A stretch of DNA of 64,000 bases from contig NC_043024.1 of assembly GCF_006345805.1 (NCBI RefSeq), forward strand, positions 16,554,001 to 16,618,000. Reading direction: 5' to 3'. Positions 3,619-63,077 of this stretch are shown one piece after another. The notes below the pieces were generated by a model. It did not search any database. It saw only the letters and a list, made by a program, of their open reading frames with translations, and had not been told where the DNA came from. Position 1 is the stretch's first letter; the number at the start of each line of letters is the position of its first letter. Source of the stretch: Octopus sinensis. Taxonomy: Eukaryota. The translations under genes and the position numbers were made by a program.

Positions 3619-4710
3619 CATCATCATCATCATCATTTAACGTTCATTTTCCATGCTAGCATGGGTTGGACGGTTCGACCGGGGTCTGGGAAGCCAGGGG
3701 CTGCACCAGGCTCCAGTCTGATCTGGCAGTGTTTCTACAGCTGGATGCCCTTCCTAATGCCAACCACCCCGCGAGTGTAGTGGGTCCTTTTTACGTGCCA
3801 CCGGCACAGAAGCCAGTCAAGGCAGTGCTGGCAACGGCCACGTTTGGATGGTGCTTTTGGCATCGGCCACATTCGGATGGTGCTTTTTATGTGCCACCGG
3901 GACAGAAGCCAGTCGAGGCGGAGCTGACAACGGCCACGTTCGGATGGTGCTTTTTATGTGCCACCGGCACAGGTATCACAACTACTATTTCGATTGATAT
4001 TTATTTTGGTGTTCATGTACTTGACTCAACAGGTCTCCTCAAGCACAGCGGGATGTTCTGGAATCCAGGGTACTTTGAATGGGCAGGGGCTATGCGTAAC
4101 TGGTGCAGGAAGCAGCCCGGGTCTTTACAGTCACAGCATATCTCCAGAGATCTCGGTCCTTCGCCTTTGCCTCAGTGAGGCCCAACGCTCTGAGGTCATG
4201 CTTGACTACCTCATCCCATGTCTTCCTGGGTCTACCTCTCCCCCTGATACCTTCAACTGTTTGGGAGTGGCACTTCTTCACACATCTCTCCTCATCCACC
4301 ATCGCAAGCGTCGCTCTTGCACACCACATCTGATGCTTCTTATGTCCAGCATTTCTCTCAGAGTGCTTACCCTCTGTCGTGTGCGCACACTGACATTACA
4401 CATCCAGCGGATCATGCTAGCTTCATTCCTTTCAAGCCTACGCATGTCCTCTGCAGTCACAGTCCATGTTTCACTACCGTGAAGCATGGTGGTTCGCACA
4501 TATGCGTCATACAATCTACCTTTCACTTTGAGCGAGAGACCCTTTGTCGCCAGTAGGGGTAACGATGGGCTTCTTTCAGTTTCCATCTACCAAATCCACT
4601 CACAAGGCTTTAGTTGGCCCGAGGCTGTAGAAGAAGACACTTGCCCACGGTGCCATCCAGTGGGACTGAACCCGCAACTATGTGGTTGGGAAGCAAGCTT
4701 CTTACCACAT
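3382..4710 (-). mobile_element. SINE family A split by an RTE insertion
   Basis: 3' half at 3382-3610, 5' half at 4562-4710, RTE fragment between them inside the internal microsatellite. Confidence 0.8.
3617..4560 (-). mobile_element. 5'-truncated RTE LINE (RT C-terminus and 3' UTR)
   Basis: Minus-strand translation KGRLYDAYVRTTMLHGSETW...VEGIRGRGRPRKTW; (CAT)n tail at 3618-3636. Confidence 0.92.
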
Positions 4711-7700: not shown

Positions 7701-8384
7701 CATATACATATATATATACATATATATATGATGGGCTTCTTTTGGTTTCTCTCTACCAAATCCACTCACAAGGTTTTGGTCGTCCCGAGGCTATAGTAGA
7801 AGACACTTGCCCAAGGTGCCATGTAATGAGATTGAGCCTGGAACCATGTGGTTCGGAAGCACACTTCTTACTACACATCCATGCCTGCACCTATTCTTCA
7901 CCTTTCCAATACAGTGACTTTTAATATCTACCCTAGTAATTAACAAGCTAATTATTAAGCATTCTCTCTTTCCTATTCACACTATAATTCATAATTTAAT
8001 TTGTGTTTTTAATCATTTGCTTTCAGCTGTTATAAGAGCTTGTTCCCTATTTGTTTTAATTTTACTTTATTTCATTCTAAACTCTCTTCTTTTACTATTA
8101 GCATCTTAAATAAATAATTAAAAACCTACTCTAGTTTCTTCCATTAGCTTTTTATTTTATAATTAATTCCTTGCTGCCCACCTCACCTCATTAACTTAAT
8201 ATTTTTATGCCTTGGCATATGGGATTCTAAGGTCACCAGGAAGCATTCTGCTTAACCTCAGCACTACCCCACCCCACCCCATTCCGCCTATCCATTCTAC
8301 TTCTACTACTAGTGTCGTATCTCCTAACTTCATTTTGTCATTATCATCATTACTGTCGCTTGAATTCCAACTATTCTTGCTGTC

Positions 8385-8530
8385 ATTACATTCTGAGTTC
8401 AAATTCCATCAGCTTTGCCTTTCATCCTTTTGGGGTCTATAAAATAAAGTAGCAGTTGAGCACTGGGGATTGATGTAATTGACTTTGCCCCACCCCTCCA
8501 ACTTGGTGGTCTTGTGCTAAAATTTGAAAA
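8385..8530 (+). mobile_element. SINE family B fragment (tail type 2)
   Basis: TTCTGAGTTCAAATTCC...TTTGCCTTTCATCCTTTTGGGGTC...CTTGTGCT. Confidence 0.7.
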
Positions 8531-9027
8531 CATCATCATTATTATTATCATTATTGTAAAAGTGGTAACCTGGCAGAATCATTAGCATGCTGGATGAAAC
8601 CACAGTGGACAACAGTATTCAGGGTGAGAAGACAATGATAATGTTAAAAGCATTTCCTCACTGAAAAGTCCTGAGGATCCGGAAGCAAACCCTGCTGGCC
8701 ATGTTGACTTGGTTGTTTATATGGGTACTCTAGCTTAAGTTGATGTCAGCAACTCTGAGGTTACTTGCAGTATTTGATGCCATGAGGTTTTGGTTCAAAG
8801 GAAGAGTGCAGCCTCTTTACCAAAGAGGATTAATTCAGATTAATTCTTGTTTAGCTGCATATTGTGTTTGTCCATCCATGGGACGAATAACAGTGAGCGG
8901 GTCTGATGTATACCAAAACAGAAGACTAGAAACATTTTATCTACTTTTCAAAATATAGCAAATGTTTTCACTCTTCTGTTTTGATATGTAATTACTCTAC
9001 AAATTGAATTCACCAGAAATTTCAAAT

Positions 9028-9138
9028 ATCTATCTGTCTGTCTGTCTGTCCGTCCGTCCATCCGTCTGTCCTTCTATCTATCTATCTATATATCTATCCA
9101 TCCATCCATCCATCTATCCCTCTCTCTCTATCTATCTG

Positions 9139-9186
<48 letters not shown>
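9028..9186. repeat. compound (TCTG/TCCA/TCTA)n microsatellite
   Basis: Read directly; continues as (TCTA)n(GCCT)n(TCCT)n at 10207-10328 beyond the LINE insertion. Confidence 0.95.
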
Positions 9187-9187
<1 letters not shown>

Positions 9188-10206
9188 TCTATAGGGGTTT
9201 AGTGGAGGGGAGGTACGACGACGAGCTCGGGGCGAACCTGGACGTCGACGAGGAGTACCTGACCCGCCTGTTCGGGACGACTTTCGGGCCAGGGCCCATG
9301 GACAACTTCCAGAGATCCCTGGCCTGGCAGTGCTACCGAGAAGCGCTACCCGTTCGGGATAAGCTCTACAGACACGGCTCGAGAAACACGGGGCCGACCT
9401 GCCCGAGATGCGGTCAGAGCGACGAAACCGTCTGCACGCACTCGTTCAGTGTCCAACAATTTCCGACCTGTGGGCTTATGTCGAACAACTGCTGTCACGT
9501 GTGGGACGAGTCGGTTTATCAGCTGAGTCTATCGTCAATATTGTCACGCCTCCTTCCTTCAAACGGGAAGGAAGAGCTATTTTCATCATCCTTGTGGCTA
9601 TGGCGAAAGAATGTATCTGGTGGACGCGTCTGAAAGGATTGGAGACAAACACTTTCCTCTCTGGTCAATCTCTCATCAACTTCTTCAAGTACCACTTGAA
9701 AAGGAAAGTGAGAGTAGAGAGGCAAGTTTTGTCTAGCGAATGTTTTAAAAAAAGATGGGTGAATGTAGCAAGAATGGCACGTATGAATGACGAAGCCACC
9801 TTGAGCATAGTCCTATGAACCCAGAAATCGAAAACAGAGAGTTGCTTATTTGCAAAAAAAAAAAAAAAAAAAAAAGAAATATAAAATGTGACTTCATTGA
9901 CCGAGGTTACCGTGGTCTTTTCCGTAGGCTTTTCTTTCCACGAGTAAACCTCACCTGTCCTCCCCTTTACACTTCATTTTGACATTTCTGTGATAACGAT
10001 CCCTATTGATCAATTTTTTTTCCTCTCCCCCTTTTTTTTTTTTTTTAACCCCCCTTTTTTTTGTCCTCTTTCTCTCCTTTTACGATCCCTTTTGATCGAA
10101 ACTCACCCTTCCTTTTTTTTTTTTTTTTTTTTAAACCTTCAAAAGAAAAGCTCTACCTTGTAATTTGTTCTATCTGTGTGCAGCCCTGTGTGGCTAATAA
10201 AGAAAC
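9187..10206 (+). mobile_element. 5'-truncated Tx1/L1-clade LINE (ORF2 C-terminal zinc-knuckle region and 3' UTR)
   Basis: AWQCYREALPVRDKLYRHG...TCPRCGQSDETV/LHALVQCPTISDLW is a CX2C...HX4C motif (zf-RVT-like) with one frameshift near 9430; stop at 9816-9818; A/T-tract 3' UTR ending AATAAAGAAA; CpG-rich. Confidence 0.85.
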
Positions 10207-10207
10207 A

Positions 10208-10292
<85 letters not shown>

Positions 10293-10327
10293 TCCTTCCT
10301 TCCTTCCTTCCTTCCTTCATTCCTTCC

Positions 10328-10472
10328 TAACTTAGTAGTCTGGCAAAAGCGACCGATAGAATATGTAACCGGGCTTAATAAAAAATAAGTGCTGGGGTCA
10401 ACTAAAAATTCTTTAAGATGGTGCTCCAGCGTGGCCACAGTCAAATGACTGAAACAAGTAAAAGATAAAGGA
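10328..10472 (+). mobile_element. SINE family A 3' part
   Basis: TAACTTAGTAGTCTGGCAAAAG...GTGCTCCAGCGTGGCCACAGTCAAATGACTGAAAC. Confidence 0.8.
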
Positions 10473-13952: not shown

Positions 13953-14800
13953 GGTGGGAAAGAGAATGGGTGAGAGAGAGAGAGAGAATGGGTGTGAGGG
14001 ACAGAGAAGGGGTGGGTGAGGTAATTTGTAAGTTGATATCACTCTAACAGTTGATATCTGAAACTGAAGTCTTAAACCTCTTCCATTTAACCTTCCCCCA
14101 AGCAGCAACTAAACTACAATTACCACCACCAACACCATCACCCATACCACCTACACCATCAGAGCAATCCCCCACCACCACTACCATCACAACCAGTAAC
14201 ATCCAACCACGATCACACCACCACCACCACCACCACCACCACCATCAATACCACCACTACTGCCGCCGCCACCACCACCATAATTAAAACTCCAATCCCC
14301 CCATAACCCTCCACCGATTTCCTTTGTCTGTCTCAAGTGAACCATTTAAATCTCTGGTTTTGTAAATCCTGACAATTTCAGTCTGGTGAGAAAAAGCACA
14401 ATAAATTCTAAATGAATTATTTATATTGTTGCTACTATTGTTGATGTTGTTGTTGTTGTTACTAATGTCATGGTTGTTGTTGTTACTAAGGTTATTGTTA
14501 CTGTTACACTTGTTTCACTATTTTTGTTATTTTTATCACTGATGTTGTTGTTGTTGTTACCCTGTTGTTTCTGTTGTTATCACAGGTAGTACCTATGTTA
14601 TCTGATTTCCCTTTGTTTCCTTCAGACACCTTATGCCTCTCTCCCTGGCAACATTCTTTGAAACAAAATTAATAAAATGGAATAATACTGAGGATTGAAT
14701 CATTGAAGAAAAATATATGAATGAATGAAAAGAAGCAGAAGTTGCTGTAGTAATTTAACTTAGGCGTTAGAACTGAACTTTGGAGTTGGGACAGAAAGAA

Positions 14801-15050
14801 AGGCGGCGAGCTGGCAGAATCGTTAGCATGCCAGGCAAAATGCTTAGCGGTAGTTCATCTGCCATTATGTTCTGAGTTCAAATTCCGCCGAGGTCGACTT
14901 TGCCTTTCATCCTTTATCATGATGTAGGTAGTTGATAAATTAAGTACCTGTCATGCACTGGAGTTGATGTAATCGACTTAATCCCTTTGTCTGTCCTTGT
15001 TTGTCCCCTCTATGTTTAGCCCCTTGTGGGCAATAAGGAAATAAGAAATA
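14801..15050 (+). mobile_element. tRNA-derived SINE, family B (tail type 1)
   Basis: Head GGCGGCGAGCTGGCAGAATCGTTAGC, B box GAGTTCAAATTCC, core GGTCGACTTTGCCTTTCATCC, tail TTTAGCCCCTTGTGGGCAATAAGGAAATA. Confidence 0.9.
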
Positions 15051-18554: not shown

Positions 18555-20810
18555 ATCACTGCCGTTTAACGTCCGCTTGACAGTTTGACTGAGGGCTGGA
18601 AAGCCAGGAGGCTTTACCAGGCTCCAATCTGATCTAGCAAAGTTACTGGATGCCCTTCCTAATGTCAACCATTCTAAGAGTGTAGTGGGTGCTTTTTATG
18701 TGCCATCAGCATGAAGGCCAGTGAGGCAGTACTGGCATCAACCACACTTGAATGGTGCTTTCTACATGCCACTGGCACAGGACCAGTCAGCCAGCACTAG
18801 CATCAACTATGCTCGAATGGTGCCTTTTACATGCCATTGGCATACAAGCCAGTCAGGTGGTACTGGCAACGATCATGCTCAAATGGTGCTTTTAACATGC
18901 CACTGGTATGGGTGCCAATCAGGTGGTACTGTCATCGGCCACAACAACAATTCCACTTGCCTCAGTAGGTTTTCACATAGTTTATTGTCCAATGATTGAA
19001 GGGTACTCTTAAATGGGCTGGTCATGCTGCATTGGCATAGGCCATGGGTTATGGTCTCACTTGGCTTGCTGGGTCTTCTCAATCACAGCATATCTCCGAA
19101 GGTTTTGGTCACTTGTCATTGTCTCAGTGAGGCCCAATGTTTGAAGGTTGTGCTTCACCACCTCATCCCAAGTCTTCCTGGGACTACCTCTTCTATAGGT
19201 TCCCCCTACTGCAAGGGTGTGGCACTTTTTCACACATCCATACGCAATACATGACCATACCTATTTCTTTATTACCCACAAGGGGCTAAACATAGAGGGG
19301 ACAAACAAGGACAGACATAGGTATTAAGTTGATTACATCGACCCAGTGCGTAACTGATACTTAATTTATCGACCCCGAAAGGATGAAAAGCAAAGTCGAC
19401 CTCGGTGGAATTTGAACTCAAAACGTAACGACAGACGCAATACGGCTACGCATTTTGCCCGCCGTACTAACGTTTCTGCCAGCTCGACGCCTTGTACATG
19501 ACCATACCAGCACAGTTGTCCCTCTTGCACACCACATCTGATGCTTAAGTCCAACTTGTCTCTCAGGGCACTTATACTCTGTTGTGTATGTTTCACTGCC
19601 ATATAGCATGGCTGTTCGTACACATGTATCATACAGTCTAACTGTTACTTGAAGTGAAAGGCCCTTTGACACTAGCAGCTACACTTTCAGAGCATCCACC
19701 CTTGCTACTGACTTGGTCACCTAGGTAACGGAAGCTATCAGCTACTTCTAGTTTTTCTCCCTGGAATGTGACAAAAGCTGTTCTCTGCACATTTTCAGTG
19801 TTATTTATTGCTTCCGAGCATCTGCCACATACAAAAACTATCTTCCCAGTTAGCCTTCCTTTGACATTGCTGCACCTCTTATGTGTCCAGAGCTTACACT
19901 GGGTACATCTTATAGAGTTTCTAACTATGCCTTTTCTACAGAACAAGCAGAGCCATCTACCTGAAGGGAATTGTGATTTGTCTGCCTTCCTACTTATTAA
20001 GACTTTGGTTTTAGCTAGATTGACTGTAAGGCCCTTCGATTCTAGCTCTTGCTTCCACACCTGAAACTTCTCTAGTTTTGATAGTGACTCACCTATTAGA
20101 GCAAGGTTGTCAGCATAGAGAATCTCCCAGGGACATCCTGTGTTGAATTCCTCTGTTATTGCTTGGAGGACTATGATGAATAAGATGGGGCTGAGGACTG
20201 AACCTTGGTGGACCCCTACCTCTACCCGGAATTCTTCACTGTACTTGTTGCCAACCCTCACCTTACTGACAGCATCCCAGTACATGGCTAGTACAGCTCT
20301 CACTAACCATTCATCTATTCCTAGTTTTTGCTTCTTCTACCAGATAAGGGATTGGGAGACCCTGTCAAAGGCTTTCTCCATGTCAAAGAAAGCTAGGTAC
20401 AGAGGTTTATCTTTGGCTGGGTATTTCTCCTGCAGCGATCTTACCAGAAATATAGCATCAGTGATGCTTTTACCTGACACAAACCCAAACTGCATCTCGT
20501 CTAGACTTACTCTCTCCCTAATTAGTTGGGCTATGACCCTCTCTGTGACTTTCATTACCTGATCCAATAACTTGATACCTCTCTAATTGTATCTAATGCA
20601 TTACCTTTACCTTTCTAGCAGTTGACTATTATGCTGCTATACCAGTCATTGTGTATGACTCCTTCATGTATCACCTGACTAGACTATTGCCAACATCACC
20701 AGATATCTTAAGCATCCCTGCAGTGATTCCTGATGGGCCGGGAGCTTTCCCCGTCTTCATACTCTTAATTGCGTTATCTACCAAGGTACTGTCAATTTGG
20801 ATAGCTTAGA
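18555..20810 (-). mobile_element. degenerate 5'-truncated RTE LINE (RT with PHD-like insert), interrupted by SINE B
   Basis: QFGF..GKSITDAIF, DMEKAFDRV, GVHQGSVLSPILF, YADNL, FRYLG motifs with stops and frameshifts; 3' UTR at about 18555-19120. Confidence 0.92.
19262..19494 (-). mobile_element. SINE family B (tail type 1) with 14-bp TSD
   Basis: TSD TACATGACCATACC at 19248-19261 and 19495-19508. Confidence 0.92.
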
Positions 20811-39518: not shown

Positions 39519-40371
39519 AGATAAGGGAGTTTCTGCATGTTTGCATGATTCGTTAAAAACAACAGCCGAACCTTCCTCAAATAACACCCAACTGTCATCT
39601 TAAAATTGAAATAGCACAGTGTGCATCACAGACGTAGCAAATATATGTTCACAGTTCAGCTGTTTAAGCTTATATCAGTTTGTACACCTGTTTTCTGCAA
39701 GTGGTCACATGACCTGGTCATACATCGATCTCGCCTTTCTGGCTCTCATCCGATCATGTGACAGACCAGCTGAGCCTGGGAAATTTATGTCTCTCTACTG
39801 GGAGCCTACCTTCAGCTACATAAGGAAACCTTTCCTGCTATTTCCTCCGTGAGGCGAGCTGCACTGTTAAGATCTTTGGCAAAGAGCAAATTTATTTTCA
39901 CAGGTATCCTTTGACATTAGGTTTGTTCCTGTCTTCCAGCAGAAGTTATGTCTCATATGTTTTTTCTGGTTTTACACTGCATACATCATGAACCAATTGC
40001 ATTAGAAACCATTGTACATTTGACGACAGTATATTTCAAGACGTACCTTGACAGCTTTGCCGTGTTAATGCTCTTTAATGGGTTGAGTAAATTGTCGCAT
40101 TTTATCCTTCTGGTTTTCTGTTTCTTCATTTATCTACACACACACACACACACACACACGTGTATATTGGAACTGAAACCAGCTTTATCCCTCTATGCAA
40201 CTTCAACCATTAAATAGTCATGGACATGCAAAAATGTTGGAGCTTCTTTGATCAACCCTTTTTTGGTCAATCTAGAATTGGGGCTTAACAACAACAACAA
40301 CAACAACAGTATCAGTAACAAGACAAACCTGTCACTAACAGACATTCTAGTTACACACTAATATACATACC

Positions 40372-40607
40372 TATTTCTTTATTACCCACAAGGGGCTAAA
40401 CATAGAGGGGACAAACATGGACAGACATAGGTATTAAGTCAATTATATCGACCCCAGTGCGGAACTGGTACTTAATTTATCGACCCCGAAAAGAATGAAA
40501 GGCAAAGTCAACCTCGGCGGAATTTGAACTTACAACGTAACGGCAGCCGAAATACTCCTAAGCATTTCGCCCGACGTGCTATCGATTCTGCCAGCTCGCC
40601 GCCTTAT
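40372..40607 (-). mobile_element. SINE family B (tail type 1) with 14-bp TSD
   Basis: TSD CTAATATACATACC at 40358-40371 and 40608-40621. Confidence 0.92.
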
Positions 40608-40761
40608 CTAATATACATACCAGTTACAACAACAGATACACACCTGTCACAATACAAATACACACTTATCACAGTAACAGACATATCTGCCACAGCAATA
40701 TATATACACACACACCTGTCTCAGTAATATACACATTCCTGTCACAACAATATACATGTCT

Positions 40762-40982
40762 AAGGCAGTGAACTGGCAGAAATGTTAGCACGCCAGGTGA
40801 AATACTTAGCGGTATTTTGTCTGTCTTTATGTGCTGAATTCAAATTCCGCTGAGGTCGACTTTGCCTTTCATCCTTTCAGGGTTGATAAATTAAGTACCA
40901 GTTGCTTACTGGGGTCGATCTAATCTACTGTCTCCCCCCTCCCCCAAAATTTTGTGCCTTGTGCCTAAAGTGGAAAAGGATA
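40762..40982 (+). mobile_element. SINE family B (tail type 2)
   Basis: Same head and core as other B copies; tail CCCCCTCCCCCAAAATTTTGTGCCTTGTGCCTAAAGTGGAAAAGG. Confidence 0.88.
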
Positions 40983-43469
40983 ATATACATACCCGTTAGA
41001 ACAACAGATACACACCTATCACAGCAACAGACACATCTGTCACAACAATACACACACAGACCTGTCATAATAATATACACATTCTTGTCACAGCAATATA
41101 CATACCTGTCAAAATACACACACCTATCACAGCAGACACACTTGTGACAACCAGCTACATCCTGTCACAACAACAGATATTCTTGTCACAATAATATACA
41201 TACTAGTCACAACACTCATACAAATACATCTGTCACAATACACACACACACACACACTCTTGTCACAGCAACAAATACACCTGTCACATATCTGTCACAG
41301 TTATATAAACTTGTTTTTTATGCTGAGGTCGACTGTGCCTTTCACACTTTCGAGGCTGATGAAATAAGTACCAGTTATGCATTGGGGTTGATATAATTGA
41401 CAATCCCCTCCCCAAATTTTCAGGCCTTCTACCTACAGTAGAAACAAGTATATACACCTGTTTTAAAAACATTCACACCTGTCATAATTACAACAAAAGG
41501 TACAGCTGTCACAACAAGGACATGAGTCACGATACACATGCATACACCTCACAACAGCCCAACACCTTATAGAATCACAATTGCAAAGTGTCTTAATGAA
41601 TAACAAGGGTCATGTGCATTTAATAAAATTGCATTTGGTGCTGGGAAACAACCGTCACAACAACAACAACAACAATATATGCCTGAGCCAGAAACAAGAG
41701 CAATGCATGCTTGTTGCAGTGACTGCATTTGCTGTCACAAGAACATTGTCACAACAAAGGCACATAACTGTACGTGCAACAACGCTAAGCAACTATTATA
41801 ACCACACATGCACAGAAGTGTGTGTGTGTGTGTGTGCGCGTGCACGTGTCTGTTTCAGTTACAACATCAGCCAATTGTTACACCACCACCACCAACACAC
41901 AACACTATAGTGATACACACTTGTCATAGTGATACCATTTATTGTCAGTGACAGTCACAGTAGCAGCAACAACAACAACAACATAGCAACTGTTGCTACA
42001 ACAACACACACATCCCCGTCTGTAACAACATCAATTACAACAACAACAACAGCTACACATTGCTGCTGTCAGTAACAATATCAGCTGATTGTCTGAATGA
42101 TGTAGCTGCTTGACTTGCTAGAAATAGAAGTTAAACCTCCATTGCTGTCTGAGAGAAAATAAAAAAGAAAATAGAATATAAATGTAATAATCCTGTACAT
42201 GCTGTGTTTGAGAAAATATAGGATGGTTATGGATGGATTGTCTTTGATCATGCTTCTGTTCAAGCAGTGTTGCCTGTACATGGAACCATCTCAACACCCT
42301 ACCTGTCACTGCAACAGCTGATGAGTAAACCACTATGTGAGCTCTTGATCTATTAGAAATAATAGTTAAATTTTCCTCAGATCACACTCTGATAGCTTTC
42401 ATAAGGGAAGGAGACCTTGGAGAAAGTAGGCCTATGCATACAAAATGACAGGATGGTCATGGCTGGAATTTCTTTTCTCATGGGTCTGTTCAAGCAAATT
42501 TGCCTGGGGTTAAACAGCAGCAGCAACATCAACAACAACAATGGCTGAGCTGGCCGCAGCAGAGCCTGGAGGACTGCTATAGGTTGAGGTGATGGTGTTC
42601 AGGTGTTTGGCTACGGTGGTGACCAGAATGGGGTGCGAAGAGGGTGATGGGTGGAGATTTGTTGCATTTTCTATGGTAGACACACCTGTGACATCATCCT
42701 TATGACATCATACCTTGCCTCTCTCTCTATACCCACACACACGCACACACACACACACATACGCACACACATATATATATGTATGTATCACTCTTTCTCT
42801 TTCATTTGAAATACATATAAACTCATGCACACGTACACACACACGCACACACACACCACATGCAAGTTGATAATGATATACTCTCATAATTTATATGAAT
42901 ATATTATGTGTATAAACCATTGCCATTATCATCATCATCATCATTTTTATGGTCGCTTTTCCACACAGCCATGGGTTGGAGAGGACTTTCTGAGGTAATT
43001 TTATGGATGGATGCCCTTTCTGATGTCAACCATTTTAGTTCCCCTTACAACATACCGGAATATGACGTACGTATTCTAAGAACTGAGATATGTACAGAAG
43101 TACCGTAATATACGTATGTGTGTGCGTGCGTGTATTTGTGTAGATACATATATATTCTTATGTGTGCATATATATGTATGTATGTATATATATGTATGTA
43201 TGAATAAATATGTATATGTGTGTATGTATGTGTGTGTGTATGCATATAAATATATTCTTATGTGTATATATATAATATATATGTATATACATATGTATAT
43301 ATATATATGTATGTATGAATATATGTGCATGTGTGTGTATATATTTATGTGTATGTGTCTGAAATGGGTACAATGAACTTGCCATGTATGTATATATGTT
43401 TGTATATATGTATGCATATATGCATGTATGTATGTATGTATGTACATACGTATAAATGTTAAAGTGAAT

Positions 43470-44771: not shown

Positions 44772-45337
44772 CTCTTTTCTACATTAGGCATAAGGCTCGA
44801 AATTTTTGGGGAGGGGCCAGTCGATTAGATTGTCTTCAGTATGCAACTGGTACTTAATTTATTGACTTCGAAAGAATAAAAGGCCAAGTCGACCTTGGTG
44901 GAATTTGAACTCAGAACATAAAGACAGACGAAATACTGTTAAGCATTTTGCCCGACATGCTAACGATTCTGCCAGCTCGCCACCTTCAAATGAATTATTC
45001 TTATTTCTTTATTGCCCACAAGGGACTAAACATAGAGGGGACAAACAAGGACAAACAGATTAAGTCAATTATATCAACCCCAGTGCATAACTGGTACTTA
45101 TTTAATTGACCCTGAAAGAATGAAAGGCAAAGTCGACCTCGGTGGAATTTGAATTCAGAATGTAGCGGCAGACAAAATACCACTAAGCATTTCGTGGATT
45201 AGATCCACCCCAGTACACAAATGGTACTTAACTTATCAACCCTGAAAGGATGAATTTGAACTCAAAATGTAAAGACAGACGAAATACCACTAAGCATTTC
45301 ATCTGGCGTGCTAACGATTCTGCCAGCTCACCACCTT
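44772..45337 (-). mobile_element. cluster of three SINE B copies (tail type 2, tail type 1, partial)
   Basis: Three repeats of GAATTTGAA[C/T]TCA[G/A]AA...AAGCATTT at about 44900, 45145 and 45252. Confidence 0.85.
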
Positions 45338-52811: not shown

Positions 52812-53545
52812 CGTTTGGAGGGAACCTGTGAAAAGGGTAGACCCAGGAAGACATGGGATGAGGTGGTGAAGCATGATCTTTGAACGTTGGGCTTCATGGA
52901 GGCAAGTGAACACATAGTAAGACGGCAAACTAGCAGAAATGTTAGCACGCAGGGCGAAATGCTTACTGGTATTTCGTCTACCATTACATTCTGAGTTCAA
53001 ATTCCACCGAGGTCGACTTTGCCTTTCATCCTTTTGGAGTCGATAAATTAAGTACCAGTTGCGCACTGGGGTTGATGTAATCGACTTACACCCTTTGTCT
53101 GCCCTTGTTTGTCCCCTCTATGTTTAGCCCCTTATGGGCAATAAAGAAATAAGTGAAATCATAGTCATGGCTGATGCCAGTGTCACATTACAAGCACCCA
53201 TGCTGGTGGCACGTAAAAAGCAGCCTTCAAATGCTGGACCTCACGGAGGCAATGATAAGTGACCGAGACCTCTGGTGATGTGCAGGGCTTGAGAAGACCC
53301 ATCAAGCCAAGTGAAACCATAGTTGTAGCTGATGTTGGTGTCATGTAAGTGGAACCCATACCAGTGACATGTAAAATGCACTCATTACACATTTTTGGAG
53401 TGGTTGGTGTTAGGAAGGGCATCCAGCTGTAAAAACGTTGCCAGGTCAGATTGGAATCTGGTGCAGTTATCCAGCTTACCAATTTCAGTCAAACCATCTA
53501 ACCCATGCCAGCATAGAAAGCAGACACTAAATGATGATGATGATC
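52812..53545 (+). mobile_element. RTE 3' fragment interrupted by SINE B (52919-53150)
   Basis: EGTCEKGRPRKTWDEVVKHDL remnant, 3' UTR and (GAT)n tail; SINE TSD AAGTGAACACATAGT / AAGTGAAATCATAGT. Confidence 0.85.
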
Positions 53546-61025: not shown

Positions 61026-62106
61026 TATCTACCTCAAACAAGGCCTAGTGCTGCCATCTCTAGCCAGTGGTTATCCTGTGCCAATGAGGAGAAATAACCC
61101 AGAAACCATTGGTCTGCAGGTACCATCTAAGGCTGAGTGGCAACATTAGTTCCCTTATTTGAGGCATAAGGATGCAGTTGTGCGTCGATAGCCTACTGGA
61201 AAAGATGTTTTCCTGAGACTAAAAAAAGGTTGTAACACCGTCCTATTCAGGACTGCCACTTTACATTGGCAAATAGATTTAACTCTGCAGTACTGTTACT
61301 ACTTATTTTTTGCTTAACCAGGTATCATTTTGCAGTCATGAGATTTCAATGATGTGACTGTTTATTTTTAGAGTGATGCTGTCGGATAGATCTGGTTGGT
61401 TTGAACATAAAACAAAGTAGAATATTTCAACCAGATATGACTGGTACAAATGATATGGGATTAAAACATGTTACTGCTGGGAGATTATATGCTTTTTTTC
61501 CAAAATCCATGGCGTGTCACCTGAAAACCTGTAGAAGGTCACTACCGACACATGTCATAGCATCACCTTTACTCACATAAAGGCTTCTTCATTTCCACAA
61601 GTTAAAGTTGAACTAATTACTCTAAGCTAATTAAACATGCATTAATTAAATGTGAAACAGCAACAAATTTAGAGAACTGTTAAAATGTAATTGTTAAAAC
61701 TTTGCAGTAATTAGTTACAAGCCTTTATGTGCTGGACTCAAAACCTGTCAATTCATGGGCTTAGTAAAATAAAATAGCCGTCAAATAATTCACTCTTTGG
61801 GTCCCTCAGTTCCTGATGGAATCAAAGGGGTGTCTTCATGACAAGTGGCATACCTTGGGTATTTTAAACCTGACAGAGTACATCACTCTTTAGATCTGGT
61901 CAAGGCCAGCTTTTTCCAAAGATAGACGGAGAGAGGGAGAAGAATTAACCACAGTATTAAACTGGTATTTTATTGATAAAAGGCAACATGGGCCTTAGCA
62001 GGATTTGAACTCAGAACAGAGAGAGCTTGAACATATGTTGCACTGCATTTTATTTGACTGATAGTCAAAGATACCTGCATTGATTTAGTATTCTGGTAGT
62101 GTATCA

Positions 62107-62322
62107 AAGCGGCAAGCTAGCAGAAACTTTAGCACCCCGAGTGAAATGCTTAGTAGTATTTGGTTTGTCTTTACATTCTGAGTTCAAATTCCACTGAGGT
62201 CGACTTTGCCTTTCATCCTTTTGGGGTCAATAAATTAAGTACCAGTTGCATACTGGGGTTGATCTAACTGACTGCCCCACCTCCCCAAAAATTTTACGCC
62301 TTGTGCTTAGAGTAGAAAAGGC
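62107..62322 (+). mobile_element. SINE family B (tail type 2)
   Basis: Head, core and tail CCTCCCCAAAAATTTTACGCCTTGTGCTTAGAGTAGAAAAG. Confidence 0.88.
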
Positions 62323-62349
62323 TCTGGTTGTGTATCCTAGATTTTGAAT

Positions 62350-62768: not shown

Positions 62769-63077
62769 TAAAATAGAATAGAATAATAATTTTACTAATT
62801 AGTTCTAATTTTGCCTCAAGGCCAGCAATTTCAGCAGGAGGGGTTTAGTTCATTATTTCGACTCCAGTGTTTAACTGGTACTTATATTATCAACCCTGGA
62901 AGGATGAAAGGTAAAGCCAACGTGAAGGTGGGGACTGAACTCATAGCATAAAGAATTGAAAGAAATGCTGTTGAGCATATTGTCTGGTGCTTTAACCACT
63001 CTGACAACTCACTGTACTACTACTACTACTACTACTACTATTACCACCACCACTACTACTACTGATGATGATGATAA

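What the first reader, a model, noticed from the sequence alone, without database searches (positions are those of the whole stretch)
10164..10205. Tx1-like LINE and SINE family B share the same 3' terminus: candidate SINE-LINE partnership
Seen: the LINE end TTTGTTCTATCTGTGTGCAGCCCTGTGTGGCTAATAAAGAAA aligns without gaps to the SINE B tail TTTGTCCCCTCTATGTTTAGCCCCTTGTGGGTAATAAAGAAA (reverse complement of 19264-19305) at 33/42 positions, and both elements end there without poly(A). Established: SINEs often borrow the 3' end of the LINE that mobilises them, mostly L2, CR1 or RTE, while L1-type mobilisation usually relies on poly(A). Inference: SINE B tail type 1 is mobilised by a Tx1-clade element through stringent 3'-end recognition, an uncommon pairing.
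Basis: partly seen in the sequence, partly recalled or inferred. Interest (0 to 1): 0.75.

Follow-up and report, generated by a model that had tools for sequence, protein, structure and literature searches.

The report
SINE tail copied from Tx1-like LINEs
These 42 bases belong to the conserved end-piece of an L1/Tx1-type jumping gene that lands in (CTAT)n microsatellites, and an abundant octopod SINE carries the same end-piece, so it is likely copied by sister LINE families rather than by this one.

Summary
The 33/42 match is real and far beyond chance. The 42-mer is integral to the LINE: all 40 full-length genomic matches reach its last base. The LINE does not end there, though. It runs on as CATAT(CTAT)n, and 13 of 16 assessable 5'-truncated copies are also preceded by CTAT repeats, so this ~6.2 kb APE+RT+zf-RVT element is specific to (CTAT)n microsatellites.

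The tail is one version of a ~60-nt 3' module: a TGTCC…TCTATGT box, a short variable hairpin and AATAAAGAAA. This module closes 25 of 30 sampled zf-RVT LINE loci, which come from several families with different, mostly recurrent, insertion sites.

SINE B type 1 carries the same module. It matches other families (group A, 41/43) much better than the window LINE (34/44). No SINE B copy has the window LINE's hairpin. The SINE's insertion sites (TA|GGTAT or TA|AGAAA) differ from (CTAT)n. One SINE subfamily shares both a tail variant and a junction with a small group-A subfamily.

Verdict: a SINE–LINE partnership is supported at the level of the LINE group, not for this particular LINE. The partner of the youngest SINE subfamilies was not found. 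Tx1 clade membership was not tested by phylogeny.

The parts
9073..9192 (.). (TCTA/CTAT)n microsatellite directly upstream of the truncated LINE. This is the 5' side of the insertion target.
   Evidence: TRF: period 4, 29 copies. 13 of 16 assessable 5'-truncated copies elsewhere are also preceded by CTAT-type repeats, at different truncation points.
9193..10207 (+). 5'-truncated, frameshifted copy (~1.0 kb) of a ~6.2 kb L1/Tx1-type LINE (the 'CTAT-LINE').
   Evidence: 98.2% identical over 1070 bp to a copy with both ORFs open. 5' junction at 9193. Full-length extent taken from L032 against L033, 6243 bp at 98.4%.
9193..9818 (+). Remnant of the ORF2 C-terminus, including the zf-RVT Cys/His motif. 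It is split over two frames.
   Evidence: ORFs 8992-9633 and 9363-9818, compared with the intact ORF2 P0001. Pfam zf-RVT at residues 983-1035 of P0001.
9819..10147 (+). LINE 3' UTR with A- and T-runs. It is family-specific and cannot be aligned with the UTRs of other families.
   Evidence: Copies are 95-100% identical. Between families only the last 10-24 nt align by BLAST.
10148..10207 (+). 3'-terminal module of the LINE: box …TCTGTGT, hairpin AGCC-CTGTGT-GGCT, then AATAAAGAAA(CA).
   Evidence: Covariance-model hit, 51.7 bits, E 4.5e-10. The MFE fold shows a three-part stem.
10164..10205 (+). The 42 bases of the finding, which lie inside the module.
   Evidence: 33/42 identities to the SINE tail.
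10206..10244 (.). CATAT followed by (CTAT)n: the 3' junction and the 3' side of the target microsatellite.
   Evidence: TRF 10208-10244, period 4, 100% matches. 28 of 30 copies continue CATATCT.
14800..15043 (+). SINE B type 1, subfamily 1c (GGGCAATAAGGAAA), junction TA|AGAAAT.
   Evidence: blastn; model hit 14984-15043, 74.5 bits; flanks.
19262..19493 (-). SINE B type 1, subfamily 1a. Target-site duplication GGTATGGTCATGTA.
   Evidence: Model hit 19262-19321, 83.3 bits.
40372..40605 (-). SINE B type 1, subfamily 1a. Target-site duplication GGTATGTATATTAG.
45002..45194 (-). SINE B type 1, subfamily 1c, 5'-incomplete. It lies next to further SINE B pieces.
52919..53151 (+). SINE B type 1, subfamily 1c. 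15-bp target-site duplication AAGTGAA..CATAGT with 2 mismatches.

Best explanation
Window 10164-10205 lies in the 60-nt 3'-terminal module of a dead, 5'-truncated copy of a young L1/Tx1-type LINE that inserts into (CTAT)n microsatellites. SINE B type 1 carries a homologous module, which it likely took from sister LINE families (group A-like) and is predicted to use to be reverse-transcribed in trans by them, not by this LINE.

Shown:
- The module consists of a C/T-rich box ending TCTATGT, a short hairpin of variable sequence, and AATAAAGAAA.
- It closes several LINE families whose ORF2 proteins are as little as 56% identical. Their 3' UTRs are otherwise unalignable.
- Each family has its own recurrent insertion site.
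- The SINE body occurs with two alternative tails. The type-1 tail is this module over its whole length.
- No element of this group has poly(A).

Inferred:
- The LINE reverse transcriptase recognises the module on its own RNA and starts cDNA synthesis at …GAAA(UA), upstream of any poly(A) added after the embedded AAUAAA signal.
- Pol III transcripts of the SINE present the same module and are copied in trans.
- The endonuclease, possibly helped by read-through RNA that pairs with the target, sets the insertion site.
- SINE subfamily 1c was probably moved by the small group-A 'CTCTATGTT' subfamily, because they share the GGGC tail variant and the TA|AGAA junction.
- The partner of the youngest subfamilies, 1a and 1b (junction TA|GGTAT), is unidentified.
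For: Integral LINE tail: 40 of 41 genomic matches reach the last base, and the 42-mer is present in 30 of 30 loci.

Microsatellite specificity: 13 of 16 assessable truncated copies have CTAT repeats on the 5' side, and 28 of 30 continue CATATCT… on the 3' side.

LINE type:
- ORF2 of 1149 aa has Exo_endo_phos, RVT_1 and zf-RVT.
- ORF1 has a CCHC knuckle.
- The best solved relative is human L1 ORF2p, E 6.5e-53 over residues 6-877. R2 matches only the RT, at about 1e-20.

Module in many families:
- 25 of 30 zf-RVT loci end with it about 600 nt downstream of the zinc finger.
- Further families were sampled.
- UTRs of different families align only at their ends.
- CTAT-LINE ORF2 is 56% identical to group A ORF2.

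SINE tail against LINE tails, last 44 nt: group A L050 41/43, L173 40/43, CTAT-LINE 34/44.

Tail modularity: the same SINE body carries a second, unrelated-looking tail in the window.

Matched variants: 5 LINE copies carry GGGCAATAAAGAAA, 4 of them with a TAAGAA junction (6 of 9 copies in the subfamily; only 6 exact matches genome-wide). SINE 1c has the same GGGC variant, with TAAG junctions in 15 of 30 copies and TAAGAAA in 8 of 30.

Similar divergence from consensus: SINE 1c 4.9% and the group-A subfamily 3.9% (samples are biased toward best hits).

Structure:
- A named 4-bp apical helix has 82.9% of cells paired against 66.0% in shuffles (0/500). Its covariation score is 0.540 against 0.287.
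- On the model-fitted alignment the figures are 85.6% against 71.2%.
- The 11-bp extended helix has 88.5% paired against 50-57% when slid.
- 9 of 12 single folds give the same three-part stem.
Against: - No trans-mobilisation was or could be tested.
- The partner of SINE 1a/1b was not found. Patterns for group-A or L051/L106-type LINE ends with a TAGGTA junction, or with the 1b tail variant, gave 0 LINE hits. In 817 kb of fetched DNA, 103 of the 115 TAGGTA-junction tails had a recognisable SINE body upstream. By eye the other 12 were truncated SINE tails or LINE ends with near-miss junctions, none a LINE with a TAGGTAT junction.
- The 1c/group-A link rests on 9 LINE copies.
- The stem-loop is weakly supported. 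RNAalifold predicts no consensus pair. Single-sequence hairpins are no better than shuffles, median P 0.5. MFE z-scores range from -2.6 to +0.65. Sliding by -1 still pairs 81.7% of the apical cells. The lower stem never covaries, and the extended structure was read off one of the sequences.
- Tx1 clade membership was not tested by RT phylogeny, because no labelled reference could be obtained.
- Neither ARAGORN nor Rfam recognises the SINE head as tRNA.
Confidence: 0.72

Rival explanations
1. One reading: the (CTAT)n-specific LINE seen in the window is itself the element that mobilises SINE B type 1.
For: - Same module architecture and same predicted fold.
- The LINE is as young as SINE 1a: 1.4% against 1.5% divergence from consensus.
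- At least one sampled copy has both ORFs open.
Against: - Tail identity is only 34/44, against 41/43 for group A.
- 0 genomic copies of a SINE B body followed by this LINE's hairpin. The pattern tool had a positive control.
- The SINE junction is GAAATA|GGTAT or |AGAAA, with 8-25 bp target duplications at sites that are almost never microsatellites. The LINE junction is GAAACATAT(CTAT)n.
Confidence: 0.08
2. Reverse direction: the LINEs acquired their ends from the SINE, for example by SINE insertions at LINE 3' ends that were then co-transcribed.
For: SINE B copies are far more numerous than any one LINE family: more than 6000 first-look candidates, against 193-1372 for individual LINE families.
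Against: - The module is present in every sampled family of a LINE group that has diverged to 56% ORF2 identity. Each family has its own hairpin variant and its own box variants.
- The SINE body also exists with a different tail.
- No SINE body sequence precedes the module in the LINEs.
Confidence: 0.05
3. Chance or convergence: both ends are simply A/T-rich polyadenylation-like sequences (AATAAA) that look alike.
For: The most conserved stretch, AATAAAGAAA, contains a canonical poly(A) signal and is of low complexity.
Against: - 33/42 against a null maximum of 24-27.
- Similarity extends over about 60 nt to exactly the point where SINE tail types 1 and 2 diverge.
- 41/43 identity to group A.
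Confidence: 0.02
4. SINE 1a/1b are moved by an unsampled Tx1-like family whose target is the GGTATTTCG site inside SINE B itself. This would be a LINE that homes to the SINE it mobilises, as Tx1-Mar homes to Mariner-N4.
For: - 22 of 30 copies of 1a and 20 of 29 copies of 1b have the TAGGTA junction.
- 6 of 30 and 14 of 29 sit in the SINE-internal site GGTATTTCGTCTGCCG.
- Every sampled LINE family of the group is site-specific.
- There is a precedent in PMC4494074 (passages read).
Against: No such LINE was seen in 817 kb of fetched DNA or in five pattern searches. Only 150 of 24042 zf-RVT candidates were scored, so sampling is thin.
Confidence: 0.3

Closest known systems
Stringent-type LINE/SINE pairs sharing a 3' tail (eel UnaL2/UnaSINE1; recalled, and cited as Kajikawa & Okada 2002 in PMC4494074)
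   Same: - The SINE tail is homologous to the 3' end of the LINE.
- The homology runs to the terminus.
- No dependence on poly(A).
- A short stem-loop lies near the end.
   Different: - The LINE here is L1/Tx1-type, not L2, CR1 or RTE.
- The end is AATAAAGAAA(TA), not a short tandem repeat.
- The stem-loop is only weakly supported.
- Nothing was tested in cells.
L1-clade stringent pairs: maize/sorghum LINE1-1_ZM with SINEs, and Chlamydomonas L1-1_CR with SINEX-3_CR (PMC3472496, passages read)
   Same: - An L1-superclade LINE with a conserved 3' end shared with a SINE.
- Variable stem with conserved flanks.
- Compensatory changes are reported.
   Different: - Those elements end in poly(A) repeats, whereas these do not.
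- Those are plant or algal L1; this is an animal, site-specific (Tx1-like) group.
Tx1-Mar and SINEU of crocodilians (PMC4494074, passages read)
   Same: A Tx1-type, target-specific LINE group proposed as the mobiliser of a SINE. Shared target preference is used as evidence.
   Different: - No LINE with a matching 3' tail was found for SINEU-1 (passage read), and the link rests on the shared target alone.
- Here the tail is shared.
- Here the target is shared only for subfamily 1c with a small LINE subfamily.
Microsatellite-specific Tx1 elements: Kibi (TC)n, Koshi (TTC)n, crocodilian (TTCC)n/(TTTC)n families (PMC4494074, passages read)
   Same: An APE-type LINE flanked on both sides by one microsatellite, whatever the 5' truncation point.
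   Different: - The target is (CTAT)n. No CTAT-type unit, in any phase or strand, is mentioned in that paper's main text.
- The host is a cephalopod.

Membership tests
L1/Tx1 group of non-LTR retrotransposons | ORF2 with an N-terminal APE-type endonuclease followed by a reverse transcriptase | tested here: met
   Exo_endo_phos at 24-212 (E 2.6e-15) and RVT_1 at 511-760 (E 1.1e-30) in P0001. Group A and family D have the same domains.
L1/Tx1 group of non-LTR retrotransposons | Closer to L1 ORF2p than to other LINE clades with known structures | tested here: met
   Human L1 ORF2p matches at E 6.5e-53 over residues 6-877. R2 proteins match only the RT, at 3e-20 to 4e-16. Only L1 and R2 are available as solved references.
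Tx1 clade specifically | RT-domain phylogeny groups the element with Tx1 references rather than L1 proper | not testable with these tools
   No labelled Tx1 sequence could be obtained. Names are 'hypothetical protein' or 'reverse transcriptase'. Indirect support: published octopus repeat tables list L1-Tx1 as the only L1-type LINE class (PMC13282606 Table 1, PMC8967140; passages read).
Tx1 clade specifically | Target-sequence-specific insertion | tested here: met
   - CTAT-LINE: 13 of 16 on the 5' side and 28 of 30 on the 3' side.
- Family D: 20 of 29 copies share one flank.
- The L051 and L056 families have recurrent flanks.
Stringent-type SINE-LINE partnership | The 3' tail of the SINE is homologous to the 3' end of the LINE, up to the terminus | tested here: met
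   33/42 to the window LINE and 41/43 to group A. One covariance model hits both LINE and SINE ends.
Stringent-type SINE-LINE partnership | The LINE 3' end is conserved against the background of its UTR | tested here: met
   Between six families, only the last 10-24 nt of the UTRs align by BLAST. The module is present in 25 of 30 zf-RVT loci.
Stringent-type SINE-LINE partnership | Conserved stem-loop with compensatory changes | tested here: inconclusive
   For: (0/500 shuffles reach the observed values; all 4 apical pairs change on both sides) and 9 of 12 folds. Against: RNAalifold finds no pairs, single-sequence tests are not significant, and z-scores are weak.
Stringent-type SINE-LINE partnership | Same target-site signature in the SINE and its LINE | tested here: inconclusive
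   - Met for SINE 1c against the group-A 'CTCTATGTT' subfamily, TA|AGAA (only 9 LINE copies).
- Not met for the window LINE, (CTAT)n against GGTAT/AGAAA.
- No LINE was found for 1a/1b.
Stringent-type SINE-LINE partnership | The LINE proteins mobilise the SINE RNA in trans, dependent on the tail | not testable with these tools
   Needs a cell-based retrotransposition assay.
tRNA-derived SINE | The head is recognisable as a tRNA | tested here: not met
   ARAGORN finds 0 genes in the window. Rfam finds 0 hits at E up to 1 on 40300-40700. Only box-B-like GAGTTCAAATTCC is visible by eye; the box consensus is recalled.

The most novel reading that the evidence does not exclude
A whole radiation of site-specific Tx1-like LINEs in octopods shares one 3' recognition module built around the AAUAAA signal. 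The dominant octopod SINE hijacks that module. Target choice in this group is reprogrammed quickly, possibly by read-through RNA that 'remembers' the last target rather than by endonuclease change. This would explain two things: closely related LINE subfamilies use unrelated sites, and the youngest SINE subfamilies home to GGTAT, including a site inside the SINE itself, building nested SINE arrays.
Probability: 0.15. Interest if true: 0.75.

Novelty: new member of a known kind. Interest (0 to 1): 0.5.

Why it matters
SINEs make up about a tenth of octopus genomes, and in the latest published annotation nearly all are 'unclassified', with no stated LINE partner (PMC13282606, passages read). Five full-text searches found no paper naming one.

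Linking a major SINE family to the L1-Tx1-type LINEs would name the machinery behind a signature feature of these genomes. It would add an animal case to the few L1-superclade LINEs that appear to recognise a specific 3' end rather than poly(A). It would also provide a compact, testable RNA element of about 35-60 nt.

The (CTAT)n specificity, and the many other site-specific sister families, offer a natural series for studying how target choice evolves.

Tried and rejected
Hunt for the LINE partner of SINE 1a/1b:
- Group-A UTR with a TAGGTA junction: 0 hits.
- L106-type UTR with the GCCCC hairpin: 0 hits.
- Group-A UTR with the GTAGTAAAG variant: 0 hits.
- TTATARG hairpins with a TAGGTA junction: 5 hits, all SINE copies with a mutated hairpin.
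- Scan of all 817 kb fetched: 103 of 115 TAGGTA-junction tails have a SINE body upstream. The other 12 look like truncated SINEs or near-miss LINE ends.
- Family D looked promising (GAAAT|GGCATGG), but it is specific for one long recurrent flank.

A 55-nt tail fragment in L109 looked like a candidate LINE end. It turned out to be SINE subfamily 1b.

Attempts to get a labelled Tx1 reference gave only unnamed or generic names: homolog search, protein atlas, cluster members.

The single-sequence hairpin test has no power. RNAalifold gave an empty structure.

The tRNA origin of the SINE head was not confirmed.

The SINEBase supplements, which should hold the octopus OK/OR1/OR2 consensus sequences, could not be read. 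So I cannot say which published octopus SINE, if any, SINE B corresponds to.

Earlier findings of this scan: three look-ups, nothing held.

Full report
**The observation.** The LINE end at 10164-10205 and the SINE tail (reverse complement of 19264-19305) match at 33 of 42 positions without gaps. Scanning the LINE 42-mer over both strands of the window, only the five SINE B type-1 tails reach 26/42 or more (33, 33, 31, 31, 31). In 20 simulated windows the best chance score was 24-27. The match is therefore real.

They do not. A genome search with window 9700-10205 returned 41 matches (40 of 1372 candidates scored). Forty of them cover the query to its last base at 95-100% identity. All 30 fetched loci hold the 42-mer with at most two substitutions.

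**What the LINE is.** The window copy (9193-10207) is a 1.0-kb, 5'-truncated and frameshifted remnant. It is 98.2% identical to a long copy.
- Two long copies align over 6243 bp.
- One of them has an open ORF1 of 590 aa, with one CX2CX4HX4C knuckle by eye. It also has an open ORF2 of 1149 aa with Exo_endo_phos, RVT_1 and zf-RVT domains.
- The best solved relative is human L1 ORF2p, E 6.5e-53 across endonuclease and RT. R2 proteins match only the RT core.
- The nearest named homologue is from Argonauta hians (65% identity over the RT to C-terminal part), so the host is an octopod.
- I could not obtain a labelled Tx1 sequence, so 'Tx1' remains an inference. It rests on the L1-like ORF2, on pervasive site specificity, and on published octopus repeat tables, which list L1-Tx1 as the only L1-type LINE class (PMC13282606, PMC8967140; passages read).

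**The LINE does not end at GAAA.** In 28 of 30 copies the next bases are CATATCT…, usually running on into (CTAT)n. Of 16 copies whose 5' truncation point is visible, 13 are directly preceded by CTAT-type repeats, at 13 different truncation points. Three are not, and one more is hidden by an assembly gap.

The window copy itself lies between a 29-unit TCTA array (9073-9192) and a TATC array (10208-10244). This is the signature of a microsatellite-specific inserter. It is known in the Tx1 clade for (TC)n, (TTC)n and (TTCC)n/(TTTC)n (PMC4494074, passages read). No CTAT-type unit is mentioned in that paper's main text.

**The tail is one version of a shared module.** A search of the genome with Pfam zf-RVT gave 24042 candidates, of which 150 were scored and 30 fetched.
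- In 25 of the 30 loci, about 600 nt downstream of the zinc finger, the element ends with the same architecture. It has a C/T-rich box ending TCTATGT, a short hairpin and AATAAAGAAA.
- The hairpin stems differ between families: GCCC/GGGY, AGCC/GGCT (the window LINE), GATT/AATC, AATT/AATT, GATC/GATC, CCT/AGG, CCCTT/AAGGG and AACCT/AGGTT.
- Further sampling of three families gave the same picture.
- ORF2 of the window family and of 'group A' are 56% identical. Their ORF1s are 29% identical.
- The 3' UTRs of six families align only over their last 10-24 nt.
- Each family has its own recurrent downstream flank. For example, 20 of 29 family-D copies share one flank. The L051 and L056 families also have fixed flanks.

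**The SINE.** SINE B is about 230 bp. In the window the same head and body occur with two tails. The type-1 tail, from the point where it departs from type 2, is the LINE module over about 60 nt.
- Against SINE 1a over the last 44 nt, group A scores 41/43 and 40/43. The L051/L106 families match the upstream box almost perfectly but differ in the hairpin. The window LINE scores 34/44, near the bottom.
- A genome-wide pattern for a SINE B body followed by the window LINE's hairpin found nothing. The pattern tool had a positive control: 6 hits, exactly the copies already known.

Three subfamilies were sampled.
- 1a (GGGTAAT): 22 of 30 copies have the junction GAAATA|GGTA.
- 1b (GGGTAGT): 20 of 29 copies have the same junction.
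- 1c (GGGCAAT): 15 of 30 copies have TA|AG, including 8 with TAAGAAA, and only 4 have TAGGTA.
- Target duplications, mostly of 10-21 bp, were found in 47 of the 89 copies.

Many 1a and 1b copies sit in the GGTATTTCGTCTGCCG site inside other SINE B copies: 6 of 30 and 14 of 29.

**Which LINE moves the SINE.** A small group-A subfamily (box CTCTATGTT, 9 copies sampled) carries the GGGC variant of SINE 1c in 5 copies. It has the junction TA|AGAA in 6 of its 9 copies, and there are only 6 exact matches genome-wide. Its divergence from consensus (3.9%) is close to that of 1c (4.9%). These samples are biased toward best hits. This is the best candidate pair, on few copies.

For 1a (1.5% divergence) and 1b (8.4% in the sample) no LINE with a TA|GGTAT junction was found, neither by five patterns nor in the 817 kb fetched. 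The window LINE is as young as 1a (1.4%), but it differs in tail, junction and target.

**Structure.** Single folds of 12 tails give the same three-part stem in 9 cases. UCU pairs with AGA, UGU with the AAUA part of AAUAAAGA, and a variable apical stem sits on top.
- Counted on the alignments, the apical 4 bp pair in 82.9% of cells against 66.0% in shuffles (0/500), with changes on both sides at all four pairs.
- On the model-fitted alignment the figures are 85.6% against 71.2%.
- The 11-bp version pairs in 88.5% of cells, against 50-57% when slid.

Against this:
- RNAalifold predicts no consensus pair.
- Single-sequence hairpins are no better than shuffles.
- Folding z-scores are weak.
- A slide of -1 keeps 81.7% pairing in the apical helix.
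- The lower stem is invariant, so it says nothing either way.

I treat the stem-loop as predicted, not shown. The conservation of primary sequence at the very end of otherwise unalignable UTRs is the firmer evidence of constraint.

**Mechanism (inferred).**
- The module contains AAUAAA, so Pol II transcripts of the LINE should be cleaved and polyadenylated a little downstream, in target sequence.
- Since no copy carries poly(A), reverse transcription would start internally at …GAAA(UA), guided by recognition of the module. This is the stringent mode.
- Pol III transcripts of the SINE would present the same module and be copied in trans.
- The site of insertion would follow the endonuclease of the driving family, possibly helped by pairing of read-through RNA with the target.

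**Comparison with what is known.** Shared-tail SINE/LINE pairs are classical for L2, CR1 and RTE. Within the L1 superclade they are reported for a maize/sorghum lineage and for Chlamydomonas (PMC3472496). For Tx1, a SINE link was proposed from shared targets (PMC4494074).

Five full-text searches, and passages of the octopus repeat papers read, name no LINE partner for octopus SINEs. Most papers of subscription journals, Repbase entries and the SINEBase supplements could not be seen. An existing description therefore cannot be excluded.

**Verdict.** The finding is a new member of a known kind, of moderate interest.

Noticed in passing
window 40762-40990 (+), 44819-44986 (-), 62106-62330 (+); fragments at 8379-8485, 41322-41401, 62844-62921: SINE B copies with a second tail type (…GGCCCCTCCCCAAAAATTTCGGGCCTTGTGCCTAAAGTAGAAAAG). 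It also holds a GGC-CTTGT-GCC hairpin before an A-rich end, so it may derive from yet another LINE of the same group. A similar non-SINE end was seen at L108:120-179.
   Followed up: partly
loci L065-L094 and L126-L154; window 19262 and 40372: The youngest SINE B subfamilies insert at TA|GGTAT (22 of 30 and 20 of 29 copies). They often insert into the GGTATTTCG site of other SINE B copies (6 of 30 and 14 of 29), giving nested and tandem SINE arrays. No LINE with this target was found.
   Followed up: yes
G000 C9:70499064-70514771, C25:24097801-24103409, C10:103844754-103850351 (loci L229, L238, L239, L245, L251, L253): LINE family D copies lie head to tail, mostly about 5.4 kb apart. 20 of 29 share one 3' flank (T[T/G]GGCATGGTTTGTCCGATG…). 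That flank may be the 5' end of the next copy, or a fixed target.
   Followed up: partly
window 4090-4586 (-), 19100-19260 (-), about 52880-52915 (+): ORF fragments ending …GRPRKTWDEVVKH.L..LGL… from a different LINE-like element. Two of the SINE B copies are inserted into such fragments. Not classified.
   Followed up: no
window 10243-10328: Directly after the (CTAT)n target come (CTGC)n and (CCTT)n arrays, forming a compound microsatellite block.
   Followed up: no
window 9845-9870 and 10014-10135: Long A and T runs inside the LINE 3' UTR. They vary in length between copies, from about 12 to 27 A (listing).
   Followed up: no
loci L155-L184 (group A): Subfamilies whose 3' UTRs are 81-97% identical have unrelated recurrent flanks (TAAGAAA; TAGTGTATTTCTTAAATGGC; TAAAACCTGGATACATCG; TATGACCTAAGTG). 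This suggests fast switching of insertion site, though segmental duplication was not excluded.
   Followed up: partly
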